A stretch of 44,004 nt of DNA from a virus (IMGVR_UViG_2579778670_000004); one strand, 5' to 3'; counted from the stretch's first letter, positions 272 to 19,295 are shown. Program-made: numbers and translations. Notes: generated by a model not told the origin, from the sequence alone.

Positions 272-1045
272 CTACCTTGTCCGCAATTCTTTGATCTGCC
301 CAGTTGCTGTGTCGTGATATTTAATCAGATACGTCGGTTCCGGATTTTCGCCACCGCTACCACTATCGCCACTTTGTCCATTTCTCGAATAGCCCCAGCT
401 GGAGTTATCACGACGAGTTAGCGTGTAGTGCTGGAGCGGAGCACCGCTAACAGATTCGCCCGCGCCGCGCGGCAGGAATATCCAGTACCCGCCCGCGGGT
501 TTACTCACCGCATCGAATCTCGTTGCGAGCCGCGACATCAGGTGCATATCTGACTCGCCGACCTGATCGAGTTGCGTGATAACATTGTCTGCAAACCGCT
601 TTGATACGCGTGGTTTTAGCCCATTATCGCTCGCTATTGTCGCAACGATATCGCTGACAGTGACGTCGCTCCAGGAACGAGTCTTTTTGCTCTGAACTGT
701 CGGAGATCCTTTTGCTGCGTTCATCGGAGCCGCTTTTGCTGTGAAATCAACTACCCGGGGTTCACCGCCACTGCTAGCACCGTCAACGATGTATATCCCT
801 TTATCAATTATCTGATTACCGAAACCGAGCCCAATACTGATTTTTACTCCGCGGGCCGGAATTTTCAGAGTTTCAGAAACTATTGCTACGCGGAGTTCGT
901 CTGTCTGTTTACTGGAGCCGCCGTAATCTGTCAGCGTGATATTGATCAAACCTTTTCTTATTTTATCCGTGATGTTTTTATTATCAGCAGATATATAAAA
1001 ATTAGGTTTCCACGCCTCCACGCCAGTATTTACGTAATCACTCAT
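272..1045 (-). CDS. Phage tail/late control protein D (P2 gpD family); probably frameshifted or truncated at its C-terminus
   Basis: 257-aa ORF at the distal end of a P2-type tail gene order (T-U-X-D). Manual translation of the minus strand shows a second frame open from 324 down to a TAA at 1..3, overlapping the end of this ORF. Confidence 0.55.
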   Translation of the reverse strand: MSDYVNTGVEAWKPNFYISADNKNITDKIRKGLINITLTDYGGSSKQTDELRVAIVSETLKIPARGVKISIGLGFGNQIIDKGIYIVDGASSGGEPRVVDFTAKAAPMNAAKGSPTVQSKKTRSWSDVTVSDIVATIASDNGLKPRVSKRFADNVITQLDQVGESDMHLMSRLATRFDAVSKPAGGYWIFLPRGAGESVSGAPLQHYTLTRRDNSSWGYSRNGQSGDSGSGGENPEPTYLIKYHDTATGQIKELRTR

Positions 1046-1048
1046 TCA

Positions 1049-1273
1049 TCAATCCCATAATTGCGTTTCTTTTTTAACCGGCTCTGGTTCGATATCTGGT
1101 AAAACAATTTTTTCTCCAGCACGAAACACGGCACACATATCCGTTACGCCGTAATTCGAAACCTGATATAAAACAGTCTCTGTCGTTTTTGACGCTCTCC
1201 CGTAGACCGCAAGGCAGATCTGATCGAGACGGTCACCGTCCCGTGTAGTGTATGTAATCATTTGGGGCCCCAT
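1049..1273 (-). CDS. Tail protein X (P2 gpX-like)
   Basis: 74-aa ORF; sequence pattern (DxLDxIC..YGR...TVL..N, LPDI) resembles P2 gpX as remembered; sits between D and U. Confidence 0.55.
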   Translation of the reverse strand: MGPQMITYTTRDGDRLDQICLAVYGRASKTTETVLYQVSNYGVTDMCAVFRAGEKIVLPDIEPEPVKKETQLWD

Positions 1274-1434
1274 TAATTAAAAGGATTTCATAATGAGAAT
1301 TAATTTTAGTAGTCGGAGAGGTATTAGTATTTCGGCGTCAAAAAAAATACCATCAGGTTGTTTTACATTTATGTTCGTAGTTTTTTTTATTATTTTTATA
1401 CTTGTTAAGTGCTCTGGTAGCGCTTGATTTTGTA

Positions 1435-16650: not shown

Positions 16651-16880
16651 AATCGAACTCCCACGGGCCGACGGCGTCCCGTACTCAGACCGAGCTGTGA
16701 TTTCAGCTCGATAATGTACGTTCGGAGCTGCTCAATACTCGCCTGCGAGTATTGATAGCTCCGGTTATTTCCTGCTGAATCGCCGTGAGACAGCGACACG
16801 GTCGATTTACCCGTTAATAATTTGTGCAGAGCGATTTCCGCTTCCAGCAGTCGTTCTGTTAAAACCTCGCGCGACGTCAT
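16647..16880 (-). CDS. Head-tail joining protein gpW
   Basis: 77-aa ORF between terminase and portal; pattern like lambda W. Confidence 0.6.
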   Translation of the reverse strand: MTSREVLTERLLEAEIALHKLLTGKSTVSLSHGDSAGNNRSYQYSQASIEQLRTYIIELKSQLGLSTGRRRPVGVRL

Positions 16881-18841
16881 TAGCTCCCTCCGAGCATTCT
16901 GGCCATCTCCTCGAGAGACAGTTTGTTTTGTGATTTTTTCCGTTGCTCAGCGAGCGTCTCGAGATTGAGCTGGAAACGAATTTTACTGATACGCAGCGCT
17001 GCCAGTCCGTACACCCAGCAGTCGAGCGCCTCATTTCGCCGGCCCTGGTTGTCCCAACGATAAACGACGCGACCGTTAATGAGTTTCGGGATCAGAACCT
17101 CGGAGACGAGCTGTTTTGCCTCTGTCGTGCTGAATATTTCGTCGTCGTTGGGAAAATGAATCGCACCTGGTGTCGCCGATTTGGAGTCGGGTTCCAGCTG
17201 CAGGCGCATTGCGAGCAGGTCTTTCGCTGTATCTGTCCCAATCAACGACAAATACACTTTATTCGCGTTACGGGTACGAGGCATATTTACGACCGGCTGG
17301 CCGTATGAGCTCGCGCCCTTGATTGGAATGACCCACAGCGGACCGAGTTTCAGCGAGCGGTTATAAACGACCTGCGCATCTATACCACCGGTATCCCACG
17401 CCCAGCGACTGACGCCGATTGTGGTCCCGTCGCTGCGCCGGTATTGTTTGCGAATCACTCCGTCGACGCGCTGCAGCGTGTCCTCCTCGTCGTAGCGACC
17501 GAGGACGATTGTTTTATCAATCAGCCAGCACTCCTCCTCGGCTCCCCAGCCCCACACATAACACTCGTAGCGCCCGGACGTCTGAGAGTCGATGCCGCCG
17601 GTTATATAAACAACACCGTCAGGAACCTGGCTGGCGTATTTTTCCCGGCGATTAACCAGAATATCGTGCTCCAGCTGCTCGCTGGCCACGTCGCTCCAGA
17701 GTTCGCCGAGCGTCGTGTTATGAAACGTCTTTTCCTTGAGCGGGTCGCCTTTCGCTTTCAGCCACTCGCTGACAATCTCGCCCCATCCATCGAGGTTTAG
17801 TGAATACAGGGCGTTTATCACGATCGCAGCGTGTTTCGGCGCGCGAACGACGCCACCGTCATGATCAAAAAAATGAATGCCGTCTCGGGTCCAGGTGCAG
17901 TCCTCGGCTATCCAGCGCCCCCCGAACTCCATTTTTTCGAGATCGCGATAGTAAAAATGTTCCGGGCAGTGGCAGCACTGGTAATACGCGGACGACGATT
18001 TCGCCTCATTGGTCTGCAGGCTGTTATCCCATTTGAGGCCGTATTCGATACCGTCGAAACCAAATACCAGGACCTGCTCCTCGCCACAATGCGGACATGT
18101 CAGGTAAAAACGAAACGTCAGATCGGCAGCGTCTTCGAGCATTTCGATATGACTTTTGCCGGTAACGGTCGGCGTCGAACCAAAAATCGCCTTCGGGTAC
18201 GCTGCCCCTTTAATTCGAACGAGCGCCAGTTCGATGGGCGAGCCCTCGCCTTTGCCTTTTTTGGCAACTTCCAGCGGCCAGCCGTCAACTTCGTCACCCT
18301 CGACAACCTGTTTCGTTAGTCGCCGGAAATTTCCTGGTGCACTCGCGCCGCGAAAATCAAGAATCGCGCCGCTCATTTCTTTACGCTGGAGATTGTTACG
18401 CTCGTTGCTTTTATCCCAGTCGGGGAAAATTTTCTGAATCACTGGCATTTCGGCGATAGCGGGGTCAACCTCGTCGGCGACAAATCCATCCGATTCGTCA
18501 TCGATAGGCTGATAGACCACGGCACTACGTTTTTTGTGCTCAGCGAAATAGAGCAGCGCCGCGACGAGTATTTTTGTATAACCGAGACGAGCTGATTTGC
18601 GAACAGACACGATTTTTATCGCGTCGTTCGTCATCATATTGAGCATCACTACCTGGACCGGCTGAGTCGTCCAGTGCCCAGCGATGTGGCTGGAGCCCTC
18701 AGGGAGATAAAAATATTTATCAGCCCACTCAACACCCGTCATCGGTATCGTCACGCGCAAGGGATTCAACCCTGTCGAGATCGCGTTCGATATCGCTGAC
18801 ATCGTAATCGCTGAAGTCGATTCGTATGTCTGACAACTCAT
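16880..18841 (-). CDS. Terminase large subunit (lambda gpA family)
   Basis: 653-aa ORF; VEWADKYFYLP and CPHCGEEQ motifs as in lambda A. True start may be the internal Met near 18742, which removes most of the overlap with the small subunit. Confidence 0.9.
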   Translation of the reverse strand: MSCQTYESTSAITMSAISNAISTGLNPLRVTIPMTGVEWADKYFYLPEGSSHIAGHWTTQPVQVVMLNMMTNDAIKIVSVRKSARLGYTKILVAALLYFAEHKKRSAVVYQPIDDESDGFVADEVDPAIAEMPVIQKIFPDWDKSNERNNLQRKEMSGAILDFRGASAPGNFRRLTKQVVEGDEVDGWPLEVAKKGKGEGSPIELALVRIKGAAYPKAIFGSTPTVTGKSHIEMLEDAADLTFRFYLTCPHCGEEQVLVFGFDGIEYGLKWDNSLQTNEAKSSSAYYQCCHCPEHFYYRDLEKMEFGGRWIAEDCTWTRDGIHFFDHDGGVVRAPKHAAIVINALYSLNLDGWGEIVSEWLKAKGDPLKEKTFHNTTLGELWSDVASEQLEHDILVNRREKYASQVPDGVVYITGGIDSQTSGRYECYVWGWGAEEECWLIDKTIVLGRYDEEDTLQRVDGVIRKQYRRSDGTTIGVSRWAWDTGGIDAQVVYNRSLKLGPLWVIPIKGASSYGQPVVNMPRTRNANKVYLSLIGTDTAKDLLAMRLQLEPDSKSATPGAIHFPNDDEIFSTTEAKQLVSEVLIPKLINGRVVYRWDNQGRRNEALDCWVYGLAALRISKIRFQLNLETLAEQRKKSQNKLSLEEMARMLGGS

Positions 18842-19295
18842 TTAAGGCTATCGCCAGCTCCTCTCGTAATACACTGCTCGCCTCTTGCGGCATCTCCGGC
18901 CAGACCTTTTTCAGGCGTGGTGGCCACGACTCGACGCGGGTACGTAATTCAACGGCGACGCGAGATACAGCGACGCTAATTAATTCAATTGGCGCGTAGC
19001 GTTTAGCGAGAATGCGGCGTTTTACTCGTGCCATCAGGATTCGCTCCTGTCGTTCCTCATTTTTCAGCCACTGCTCGCGATTTTTTTCGGGAGAATTGTC
19101 CCCCGCTTCCGGTTCGTCATTACTAGTTGTGTCGCGTCTATTGCTCCGGAGATAACGAATATAAAAATGGCGCCATGCGTCTAGCTCCCAATCACCACGT
19201 CCTTGTGGGACTGGTGCTCCCGGAAGTTTTGCGAGATCGCGCAGACGACGATCAGATAGCAGTAAATGTGCTGCAACCTCAGCCTGACTTGCCAT
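18729..19295 (-). CDS. Terminase small subunit (Nu1-like), putative
   Basis: 188-aa ORF immediately upstream of and overlapping the large terminase; acidic C-terminus. Confidence 0.45.
   Translation of the reverse strand: MASQAEVAAHLLLSDRRLRDLAKLPGAPVPQGRGDWELDAWRHFYIRYLRSNRRDTTSNDEPEAGDNSPEKNREQWLKNEERQERILMARVKRRILAKRYAPIELISVAVSRVAVELRTRVESWPPRLKKVWPEMPQEASSVLREELAIALNELSDIRIDFSDYDVSDIERDLDRVESLARDDTDDGC

What the first reader, a model, noticed from the sequence alone, without database searches (positions are those of the whole stretch)
272..19295. Mosaic virion module: lambda-type head genes joined to a P2-type contractile tail
Terminase, portal, protease, decoration and major capsid proteins read as close lambda relatives (gpA, gpW, gpB, gpC, gpD, gpE). 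They are followed by baseplate, sheath, tube, E/E', tape measure, U, X and D genes in P2 order. This is a myovirus tail on a lambdoid head and early region.
Basis: partly seen in the sequence, partly recalled or inferred. Interest (0 to 1): 0.4.

Follow-up and report, generated by a model that had tools for sequence, protein, structure and literature searches.

The report
Lambda-head, P2-tail prophage virion module
This is the virion gene block of a common E. coli ST131 prophage, joining a lambda-type head to a P2/R-pyocin-type contractile tail; this chimera is real but already described, and this copy carries a frameshift in an essential tail gene.

Summary
On the minus strand, 19295 to 1, lie Nu1-A-W-B-C-D-E-FI-FII of the lambda type (35-64% aa identity to lambda for A, W, B, C, D and E). 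A Z-like neck protein and a tail terminator follow, then V-W-J-I-H-chaperone-sheath-tube-E-T-U-X-D (30-41% identity to P2). Genes are tightly packed or overlapping, lie downstream of a lambdoid Q and lysis cassette, and sit in one prophage flanked by a 125-bp att repeat at tRNA-Leu.

Three corrections apply.
- The head genes are not close lambda relatives: DNA similarity is limited to about 150 bp.
- The tail order is that of the R2 pyocin cluster PA0615-PA0628 and of phages Valp1 and yong2. P2 itself keeps X elsewhere and uses R/S and Ogr, which are absent here.
- The baseplate hub gene D carries a 1-nt insertion at position 278. It is cut to 257 of 347 aa, so this copy is probably defective.

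The sequence is 100% identical to the prophage of ST131 strain EC958 and to GenBank ON470624. It occurs in 442 of 5,426 complete E. coli genomes. The same lambda/P2 chimera is known from Vibrio telomere phage Valp1 (a proven myovirus), VHML, Wolbachia WO and Xylella prophages. It is ordinary and already known.

The parts
18729..19295 (-). Small terminase subunit, Nu1 family (188 aa)
   Evidence: phrog_57 at 3e-39, the family that holds lambda Nu1. 45% identity to Valp1 small terminase. No BLAST hit to lambda Nu1.
16880..18841 (-). Large terminase subunit, gpA type (653 aa; overlaps Nu1 by 113 nt, as in Valp1)
   Evidence: 43% identity to lambda A and 60% to Valp1. PF05876 plus PF20454. The first ~360 alignment columns are 61-75% identical to Valp1 but 25-49% to lambda.
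16647..16880 (-). gpW head-tail adaptor
   Evidence: 35% identity to lambda W. PF02831 at 6e-16.
15076..16650 (-). Portal protein, lambda gpB family
   Evidence: 64% identity to lambda B. PF05136 at 8e-91.
13769..15076 (-). Prohead protease, gpC type (S49)
   Evidence: 56% identity to lambda C. PF01343.
13440..13769 (-). Head decoration protein, gpD type
   Evidence: 40% identity to lambda D. PF02924 at 30.7 bits, cut-off 29.1.
12347..13381 (-). Major capsid protein, gpE type
   Evidence: 56% identity to lambda E. PF03864 at 1.5e-59. Lambda-group phages are the best hits among 50,697 phage records apart from self.
11893..12312 (-). DNA-packaging protein FI
   Evidence: PF14000 and phrog_92, the family of lambda FI.
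11516..11896 (-). Head-tail joining / head closure protein FII
   Evidence: PF05354 and phrog_82, the family of lambda FII.
11485..11515 (-). Head/tail module joint: a 31-nt spacer overlapped by a GC-rich hairpin (11494-11519) that starts right at the FII stop codon; G+C drops from 54.7% to 46.6% here
   Evidence: In yong2, homology to the window is strong only from the Z-like gene onward (28-48% identity); upstream only terminase and portal match weakly, at 25% and 22%.
10804..11484 (-). Z-like tail completion / Neck1 protein (226 aa)
   Evidence: phrog_27 at 4e-43, the family of lambda gpZ. 35% identity to Valp1 and 31% to yong2. No pairwise similarity to lambda Z.
10271..10807 (-). Tail terminator / collar (178 aa), homologue of R2 pyocin PA0615
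   Evidence: Profile against PDB: 6u5f_A collar PA0615 at 9e-8 over the full length. Foldseek top hits are the pyocin collar, Mu terminator, diffocin collar, T4 gp15 and T5 p142 (the model is weak, pLDDT 55).
9388..10305 (-). Baseplate spike, gpV type, with a long C-terminal extension
   Evidence: 35% identity to P2 V over the N-terminal 117 aa. PF04717.
9044..9433 (-). Baseplate wedge, gpW/gp25 type (PGAP start at 9385)
   Evidence: 36% identity to P2 W. PF04965.
8127..9047 (-). Baseplate wedge, gpJ type
   Evidence: 41% identity to P2 J. PDB PA0618 at 8e-60.
7498..8124 (-). Baseplate wedge, gpI type
   Evidence: 34% identity to P2 I. PF09684. PDB PA0619.
6321..7505 (-). Tail fibre: P2 gpH-type N-terminal collar domain with a lineage-specific C-terminal part
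   Evidence: 32% identity to the P2 H N-terminus. PF12571 and phrog_5075.
5932..6321 (-). Probable tail-fibre assembly chaperone (129 aa)
   Evidence: Assigned by position. 44% identity over 55 aa to the yong2 'tail fiber assembly protein'. phrog_1795. Function is inferred.
4433..5935 (-). Tail sheath (500 aa) with a ~115-aa insert relative to P2 FI
   Evidence: 36% identity to P2 FI in two pieces, aa 3-43 and 158-495. PDB PA0622 at 6e-49. PF04984 plus PF17482.
3903..4415 (-). Tail tube
   Evidence: PF04985 and phrog_55, the family of P2 FII. PDB PA0623 at 1e-14.
3609..3890 (-). Tail assembly chaperone, gpE type
   Evidence: PF10109 at 1.7e-15. 44% identity to yong2.
3481..3648 (-). Putative E' extension in the -1 frame, ending 20 nt into the T gene
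   Evidence: Open -1 frame. Small annotated ORFs in Valp1 and yong2 sit in the same frame and position. No slippery heptamer and no sequence similarity were found, so this part is inferred.
1860..3500 (-). Tape measure protein (546 aa)
   Evidence: Assigned by position. 35% identity to Valp1 and 34% to yong2. phrog_3654; no Pfam family.
1435..1863 (-). gpU-type tail protein
   Evidence: 35% identity to P2 U. PF06995. PDB ripcord PA0626.
1049..1273 (-). gpX-type tail protein
   Evidence: 40% identity to P2 X. PF05489.
1..1045 (-). Baseplate hub, gpD type, frameshifted: an extra A at window 278 gives a stop at 272-274 (257 aa instead of 347); 1-165 is the out-of-frame C-terminal remnant
   Evidence: Alignment with the intact allele of strain 22KM0354. 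30% identity to P2 D, with the remnant matching P2 D nt 23793-23909, near the 3' end of the gene. PDB pyocin hub 6u5h_C at 2e-22.
20171..22089 (-). Upstream control and lysis: Q antiterminator (21418-22089), terminator-like hairpin (21330-21353), two holins and a CHAP/TIGR02594 endolysin
   Evidence: PF06323, PF16931, PF05449 and CHAP. Hairpin.

Best explanation
Window 1-19295, minus strand, is the complete virion-assembly block of one lambdoid temperate myophage. The prophage is integrated at tRNA-Leu (leuZ) next to yecA in E. coli ST131.

**Expression (inferred).** The block is most likely transcribed as the distal part of a single Q-antiterminated late operon: Q, a terminator-like hairpin, lysis genes, then Nu1 through D.

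**Assembly (by homology).**
- Nu1/gpA terminase packages DNA through a lambda-family portal into a gpE capsid.
- The capsid is built with the S49 protease gpC and stabilised by gpD.
- gpW and gpFII close the head.
- Separately, a P2/R-pyocin-type contractile tail is built. Hub D, X, U and spike V nucleate a W-J-I wedge baseplate that carries gpH-type fibres.
- The tube polymerises around a 546-aa tape measure, chaperoned by E (and probably E+E'). The sheath follows.
- A PA0615-type terminator plus a Z-like neck protein cap the tail and provide the docking surface for the lambda-type FII head closure.

**History.** The chimera is old and modular. The joint lies in the 31-nt FII|Z-like spacer, where G+C falls by 8 points. 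A second, older joint lies within or near gpA.

**State of this copy.** The hub gene D has a 1-nt insertion that removes its last 90 residues, and an IS3-family element interrupts an early gene. The prophage is therefore probably unable to make infective particles on its own.
For: - Homology of every gene.
- Gaps between genes run from -113 to +161 nt, and most are overlaps of 1-8 nt.
- One att pair flanks the whole element: a 125-bp direct repeat at window 42934-43058 and 806-930 bp left of the window. tRNA-Leu/Cys/Gly and an integrase lie at the right end.
- The module is colinear in Valp1, a TEM-verified myovirus.
- The tail half, starting at the Z-like gene, is shared with Hafnia phage yong2. 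The same gene order recurs in Salmonella prophages whose protease/capsid block is of a different type.
- G+C is 54.7% for the head against 46.6% for the tail, with the step at FII|Z.
- In the first ~360 aligned positions of gpA the window groups with Valp1; portal, protease and capsid group with lambda.
- The terminator assignment rests.
- The D frameshift is shown. The same 81-nt allele occurs in 364 of 435 genomes that carry the site, and EC958 is 100% identical over window 1-35773.
- The IS insertion is shown.
Against: - No expression, induction or particle data exist for this prophage.
- The Q-dependent single operon is inferred from gene order and one hairpin. The consensus scans are weak evidence: 32 terminator-like sites against 23 expected in 1-20000.
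- E' frameshifting has no identified slippery site.
- The cos site was not found, and lambda cosN is absent from the expected place.
- Loss of function of the truncated D is inferred from conservation of the C-terminal part in P2 and yong2. It was not tested.
- The structural model of the terminator is of low confidence (pLDDT 55).
Confidence: 0.85

Rival explanations
1. The prophage is still fully functional. Either the 257-aa D fragment suffices, or the missing part is supplied in trans by another P2-type prophage, or a rare +1 frameshift at ACA-AGG-TAG restores the frame.
For: - All other 23 structural ORFs keep full length relative to the variant in strain 22KM0354.
- The stop is preceded by the rare codon AGG.
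- ST131 genomes carry several other prophages (PMC4134206).
Against: - The inserted base is not in a homopolymer, and the flanking codons give no plausible re-pairing for a +1 slip (inference).
- The lost C-terminal 90 aa are conserved in P2 and yong2, with 47% identity to yong2 over 53 aa.
- An IS also disrupts an early gene in this copy.
- The intactness of the other genes is expected anyway in a recently expanded clone.
Confidence: 0.12
2. The block is not one module but two adjacent prophage remnants: a lambdoid one that lost its tail, next to a P2-like one that lost its head.
For: - G+C differs by 8 points between the two halves.
- The two halves have different nearest relatives.
Against: - No integrase, att site or host DNA lies between the halves, only a 31-nt spacer.
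- A single 125-bp att repeat pair brackets the whole element.
- The same junction (FII, Z-like, terminator, V) occurs in an independent replicon of another genus, Valp1, and in Salmonella prophages.
- No P2 head, R, S or Ogr genes are present.
Confidence: 0.02
3. The tail half is a domesticated R-type tailocin used for bacterial antagonism.
For: It is colinear with the R2 pyocin cluster PA0615-PA0628, and its best solved-structure matches are pyocin proteins.
Against: - A complete packaging and head module, Q, a lysis cassette, an integrase and att sites are present.
- The hub gene is broken, which would also disable a tailocin.
Confidence: 0.01

Closest known systems
EC958-type ST131 prophage at yecA/leuZ; GenBank ON470624 'Escherichia phage vB_EcoM-705R4' (a PHASTER-predicted prophage)
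   Same: 100% nucleotide identity over window 1-20000 to ON470624, and over 1-35773 to EC958. At least 80% of window 1-22000 is covered in 442 of 5,426 complete E. coli genomes.
   Different: Nothing differs in the virion block. The window copy has an extra IS3-family insertion at 38154-39401 that is absent from strain AVS0967. ON470624 is a truncated computational prediction that includes the host gene yecA (bioRxiv 10.1101/2022.06.29.498070).
Vibrio phage Valp1 (OR500391) and the VHML / VP58.5 group of telomere myophages
   Same: The whole virion module is colinear from small terminase to D at 28-60% aa identity. This includes the FII, Z-like, terminator, V junction and the U-X-D order. Valp1 is a proven myovirus (PMC11054321). 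VHML is described as having a P2 tail module in a lambda/N15-like genome (PMC10612066).
   Different: Valp1 carries a protelomerase and ParAB, as linear plasmid prophages do. The window has an integrase and tRNA att sites. Valp1 has extra PAAR and spike-region genes. Portal, protease and capsid of the window are closer to lambda than to Valp1.
Hafnia phage yong2 (MZ516527), Citrobacter phage Chris1 (ON041214) and related Salmonella prophages
   Same: These are lambdoid genomes (cI, cII, Q, lysis) with a homologous contractile tail, including the Z-like protein, terminator and long-insert sheath. Identity is 28-48%. The Salmonella prophages keep the identical tail gene order.
   Different: Their protease/capsid block is a ClpP-capsid fusion with a different cement protein, instead of lambda-type C-D-E. 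In yong2 and Chris1 the W-J-I-H genes lie after D rather than before the sheath.
Bacteriophage lambda (head module Nu1 to FII, and Z)
   Same: Same genes in the same order. A, W, B, C, D and E are 35-64% identical; Nu1, FI, FII and Z belong to the same families.
   Different: Almost no DNA similarity. Lambda cosN is not found. The Nu1/gpA N-terminal part belongs to another lineage. The lambda siphovirus tail genes (U, V, G, T, H, M, L, K, I, J) are absent.
Bacteriophage P2 (Peduoviridae) tail and the R2 pyocin of P. aeruginosa
   Same: V, W, J, I, H (N-terminus), sheath, tube, E, U, X and D are homologues. The 14 genes from terminator to D follow the PA0615 to PA0628 numbering order wherever a PA number could be read from PDB entries: 0615, 0618, 0619, 0622, 0623 and 0626.
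   Different: - There is no P2 head (Q, P, O, N, M, L), no R or S, and no Ogr.
- X is in a different place from P2.
- The sheath carries a ~115-aa insert.
- Unlike a pyocin, the element has a head and a packaging machine.
Wolbachia phage WO and Xylella prophages XfP1/XfP2 (published lambda/P2 chimeras)
   Same: These are described as having lambda-like packaging and head genes with P2-like baseplate and tail genes. The WORiC gene list shows the order V, hypothetical, 'minor tail protein Z' (PMC3235987).
   Different: They come from distant hosts. No sequence comparison was made here.

Membership tests
Lambda-type packaging/head module | Nu1-type small terminase and two-domain gpA large terminase | tested here: met
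   phrog_57 is shared with lambda Nu1. PF05876 plus PF20454, and 43% identity to lambda A.
Lambda-type packaging/head module | gpW, lambda-family portal, S49 protease gpC, gpD decoration protein and gpE capsid protein, in lambda order | tested here: met
   35-64% identity, same order.
Lambda-type packaging/head module | FI and FII head-completion proteins | tested here: met
   PF14000 and PF05354; phrog_92 and phrog_82 are shared with lambda.
Lambda-type packaging/head module | Lambda cosN sequence next to Nu1 | tested here: not met
   No match with up to 2 mismatches near 19.3-20.2 kb. The cos site remains unidentified.
Genus Lambdavirus / close lambda relative | Nucleotide-level similarity across the genome and a siphovirus tail | tested here: not met
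   Only a ~150-bp patch of about 83% identity. The tail genes are of the contractile type.
P2-type contractile tail | Sheath, tube, gpE chaperone, U, X, D hub, V spike and W-J-I wedge homologues | tested here: met
   D falls below the Pfam cut-off (22.4 bits against 30.1) but scores 8e-24 against P2 D.
P2-type contractile tail | Programmed -1 frameshift giving E+E' | tested here: inconclusive
   A -1 ORF sits in the right place, as in Valp1 and yong2. No slippery heptamer and no similarity were found.
Peduoviridae (P2-like phages) | P2 head genes Q, P, O, N, M, L, tail completion genes R and S, and the Ogr late activator | tested here: not met
   tblastn of P2 R, S, L and Ogr finds nothing significant. 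The head genes here are lambda-type.
R-type tailocin (pyocin R2) | Gene cluster colinear with PA0615-PA0628 | tested here: met
   The full numbering of the pyocin cluster comes partly from established knowledge.
R-type tailocin (pyocin R2) | Absence of head, packaging and integration genes | tested here: not met
   Full head module, integrase and att sites are present.
Lambdoid prophage (genome organisation) | int, cI/cro, cII, replication, nin, Q, lysis, then late structural genes in one direction | tested here: met
   An N-type antiterminator was not identified.
Telomere phages (VHML/VP58.5/Valp1) | Protelomerase and ParAB partition genes | tested here: not met
   None appears in the PGAP annotation of the prophage. 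An integrase and att repeat are present instead.

The most novel reading that the evidence does not exclude
The D frameshift allele is carried, with every other virion gene intact, in at least 364 complete genomes. It might not be simple decay. It could be tolerated or bypassed, for example by recoding at the rare AGG codon before the stop, or by use of the hub protein of a co-resident P2-type prophage. In that case the dominant ST131 lineage would keep a conditionally active lambda-head/contractile-tail phage or transducing particle.
Probability: 0.05. Interest if true: 0.45.

Novelty: already known. Interest (0 to 1): 0.15.

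Why it matters
It matters little for discovery. The exact sequence is in GenBank and in hundreds of complete genomes, and lambda-head/P2-tail chimeras have been described in Wolbachia, Xylella and Vibrio phages.

Modest value lies in three points:
- A precise map of the module joint. It lies between FII and the Z-like neck protein, with a G+C step, and a second joint lies inside gpA.
- Assignment of an unannotated 178-aa protein (phrog_1072) as a PA0615-type tail terminator.
- The observation that the prophage copy fixed in ST131 carries a frameshift in the baseplate hub gene. This bears on whether this widespread prophage can still spread or transduce.

Tried and rejected
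**Searches that found nothing**
- The E' peptide against P2, Valp1 and yong2 gave no significant similarity. No X XXY YYZ heptamer lies in the 37-nt overlap.
- Lambda cosN gave only chance-level matches, and those were elsewhere in the window.
- hhalign of the terminator profile against P2 gpR and lambda gpU gave no signal.
- BLASTP of the Z-like protein against lambda Z, and a PDB search with it, found nothing. The Z assignment rests on PHROG membership only.
- tblastn of P2 R, S, L, G, T, FII, E and Ogr against the window found nothing significant.
- The AlphaFold model of the terminator is weak (pLDDT 54.8). The Foldseek result is therefore used only as support for the sequence-profile hit.

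**Literature dead ends**
- The PhiHAP-1 paper (PMC2447096) is not held.
- Which of the EC958 prophages Phi1-Phi7 this one is could not be established.

**Readings rejected**
- Tailocin, and two juxtaposed prophage remnants (see the rival explanations).
- A sequencing error as the cause of the D frameshift. The allele recurs in 364 complete genomes.

**Technical note**
- Each script run copied only one newly fetched locus to the script machine, so several loci had to be fetched twice.

Full report
**What is there**

Every ORF of the finding lies on the minus strand and reads from 19295 down to 1.

Lambda comparison. Local tblastn against lambda (NC_001416) gives:
- gpA 43% identity (E 5e-157), gpW 35%, gpB 64%, gpC 56%, gpD 40% and gpE 56%.
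- Pfam places each in the lambda families GpA_ATPase/GpA_nuclease, gpW, Phage_portal_2, Peptidase_S49, HDPD and Phage_cap_E.
- The small terminase has no BLAST match to Nu1. It falls in the same PHROG (phrog_57) as Nu1.

P2 comparison. Against P2 (NC_001895) the window gives:
- V 35% (N-terminal OB domain only), W 36%, J 41%, I 34%, the N-terminal collar of H 32%, sheath 36%, U 35%, X 40% and D 30%.
- Tube and E are recognised by Pfam (Phage_tube, Phage_TAC_7) and PHROGs.

**Corrections to the observation**

1. The head genes are not 'close' to lambda. Megablast against 50,697 phage records finds only a ~150-bp patch of about 83% identity, in the portal gene. Lambda-group phages are nevertheless the nearest deposited relatives of the capsid protein, at 54-57%.

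2. The tail gene order is not strictly P2's.
   - P2 keeps X in its head/lysis operon, has R and S before V, and splits the tail genes into two operons activated by Ogr.
   - tblastn finds no R, S, L or Ogr in the window.
   - The order found is terminator, V, W, J, I, H, chaperone, sheath, tube, E, T, U, X, D. This is the order of the R2 pyocin cluster.
   - The best solved-structure matches are collar PA0615, Tri1 PA0618, Tri2 PA0619, sheath PA0622, tube PA0623, ripcord PA0626 and the pyocin hub.

3. E' is only an open -1 frame (3648-3481) that ends 20 nt into the T gene.
   - Small ORFs annotated in Valp1 and yong2 occupy the same frame and position.
   - No slippery heptamer and no sequence similarity were found.

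**The neck**

Two genes lie between FII and V.
- The 226-aa protein (10804-11484) belongs to phrog_27, the family that holds lambda gpZ. It has no pairwise similarity to Z.
- The 178-aa protein (10271-10807) is phrog_1072, annotated as function unknown.
  - A profile of it and its homologues hits the R2 pyocin collar PA0615 over the full length at E 9e-8.
  - A low-confidence AlphaFold model (pLDDT 55) retrieves the pyocin collar first. The Mu terminator, diffocin collar, T4 gp15, T5 p142 and lambda gpU follow.
  - I assign it as the tail terminator.

The neck thus reads W (adaptor), FII (head closure), Z-like (Neck1), terminator. This is the lambda order FII-Z-U, with a contractile-tail terminator in the U position.

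**One module or two remnants**

It is one module.
- Gene spacings run from -113 to +161 nt, and most are overlaps of 1-8 nt.
- The FII|Z-like spacer is 31 nt and holds no mobile-element feature.
- A single 125-bp direct repeat brackets the whole prophage. One copy is at window 42934-43058 and includes the 3' part of tRNA-Leu. The other lies 806-930 bp left of the window, between yecA and a 139-aa orphan ORF.
- The rest of the element is lambdoid: integrase, divergent cI-like and cro-like genes, a CII-like activator, an O-like initiator, a DnaB-like helicase, a NinB-like protein, Q, two holins and an endolysin.
- A terminator-like hairpin sits between Q and the first holin. This fits a lambda-style Q-antiterminated late operon that now also carries P2-type tail genes. 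That step is inferred.

**Relatives and history**

- Valp1. The full module, small terminase to D, is colinear at 28-60% identity with Vibrio phage Valp1.
  - Valp1 is a protelomerase-bearing phage shown by electron microscopy to be a myovirus with a 60-nm head and a 90-nm contractile tail (PMC11054321).
- yong2 and Chris1. The tail half, beginning exactly at the Z-like gene, is shared with the lambdoid myophages Hafnia yong2 and Citrobacter Chris1. Their protease/capsid block is of a different type, a ClpP-capsid fusion.
- Salmonella prophages with a 67%-identical terminator keep the same tail order, gpA, portal and FII. They also carry the ClpP-capsid block.
- Composition. G+C is 54.7% from Nu1 to FII and 46.6% from the Z-like gene to D, and the step falls at the FII|Z-like spacer.
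- Inside the head module.
  - The first ~360 aligned positions of gpA are 61-75% identical to Valp1 and 25-49% to lambda.
  - Portal, protease and capsid are 56-62% identical to lambda and 33-47% to Valp1.
  - This is a topological conflict that points to a second, older recombination joint in or near gpA.
- Literature.
  - Lambda-like packaging and head genes with P2-like tails are described for Wolbachia WO phages and Xylella XfP1/XfP2 (PMC3235987).
  - VHML is described as a P2 tail module in a lambda/N15-like genome (PMC10612066).

**Identity and state of this copy**

- Window 1-20000 is 100% identical to GenBank ON470624, 'vB_EcoM-705R4'. That record is a PHASTER-predicted prophage from carbapenemase-producing E. 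coli.
- Window 1-35773 is 100% identical, with no gaps, to the prophage next to yecA in the ST131 reference strain EC958.
- At least 80% of window 1-22000 is found in 442 of 5,426 complete E. coli genomes.
- Gene D differs by one inserted A (window 278) from the intact 347-aa allele of strain 22KM0354.
  - The insertion produces a stop at 272-274 and a 257-aa product.
  - The out-of-frame remnant (1-165) still matches the C-terminal region of P2 D and yong2 D. The intact form is therefore ancestral.
  - The frameshift allele is exact in 364 of the 435 genomes that carry the site.
- D is the baseplate hub and is an essential tail gene in P2 (established knowledge). This copy is therefore probably unable to build functional tails. 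That conclusion is an inference.
- The window copy also has an IS3-family element at 38154-39401 inside a 738-aa early gene.
- The intact-D strain 22KM0354 has an internal stop in Q. Different copies thus carry different lesions.
- The intactness of the other structural genes says little about selection, because the copies are nearly identical clonal descendants.

**Verdict**

Both the exact sequence and the type of chimera are already known. Interest is low.

The small additions are:
- the position of the module joint;
- the terminator assignment for phrog_1072;
- the evidence for a joint inside gpA;
- the fixed hub frameshift in the ST131 copy.

Noticed in passing
window 38154-39401: An IS3-family insertion sequence lies here, with minus-strand ORFs 39027-39365 (HTH_Tnp_1) and 38182-39000 (rve). 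It splits a 738-aa early-left gene ('phage-associated endonuclease') that is intact in strain AVS0967.
   Followed up: partly
window 42934-43058, and 806-930 bp left of window position 1 (L006 5070-5194; L013 13297-13421): A 125-bp perfect direct repeat (att) contains the 3' part of tRNA-Leu. The window therefore cuts off about 930 bp of the prophage left end, including a 139-aa orphan ORF between attL and gene D that has no family match.
   Followed up: partly
window 24000-29300: A low-G+C cargo region (39.7% overall, 33% at 26-28 kb) is transcribed against the late genes. It holds an ImmA/IrrE (CapP-like, PADLOC 2e-25) metallopeptidase at 24901-25389, a 232-aa protein with a weak hit to a DRT-associated membrane protein, and an LprI-domain protein. 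An 81-nt direct repeat (25923-26003 and 29345-29425, 89% identity) brackets a 3.4-kb insert. This may be a defence or moron cassette.
   Followed up: partly
window 15390-15424 (portal gene): A CRISPR spacer of E. coli O27:H7 strain B4103-1 matches this stretch at 100% over 35 nt. A 2025 paper reports 28 spacers from urological E. coli that match ON470624 (PMC12736100). E. coli CRISPR arrays have therefore repeatedly sampled this phage lineage.
   Followed up: no
window 4433-5935, sheath residues ~44-157: A ~115-residue insert is absent from P2 FI and pyocin PA0622. It is present in the sheaths of yong2, Chris1, Valp1, Pseudomonas phage ZRG1 and Acidithiobacillus phage AcaML1. It is probably an extra surface domain that marks this tail lineage.
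   Followed up: no
window 11494-11519: A perfect 9-bp GC-rich hairpin (AGTGGGACC-TCGG-GGTCCCACT on the coding strand) begins at the FII stop codon and is followed by the Shine-Dalgarno sequence and GTG start of the Z-like gene. It sits exactly at the head/tail module joint. It has no T tail on the coding strand, so it is not a terminator there.
   Followed up: no
window 13402-13421 and 12331-12348 (minus strand): Terminator-like hairpins with T tails flank the major capsid gene on the coding strand, in the D-E and E-FI gaps. They might tune capsid-gene dosage within the late transcript. These are consensus matches only.
   Followed up: no
window 16880-18841: PGAP and ON470624 start gpA at 18742 (620 aa). 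Homology to Valp1 gpA runs from residue 1 of the 653-aa ORF, with the same 113-nt overlap with the small terminase gene. In some RefSeq genomes the small terminase is also annotated too short (101 aa instead of 188 aa).
   Followed up: partly
L007 25444-26115 (strain 22KM0354): The prophage variant that keeps an intact D gene has an internal stop in its Q antiterminator gene (PGAP pseudogene flag). Different copies of this prophage are inactivated at different genes.
   Followed up: no
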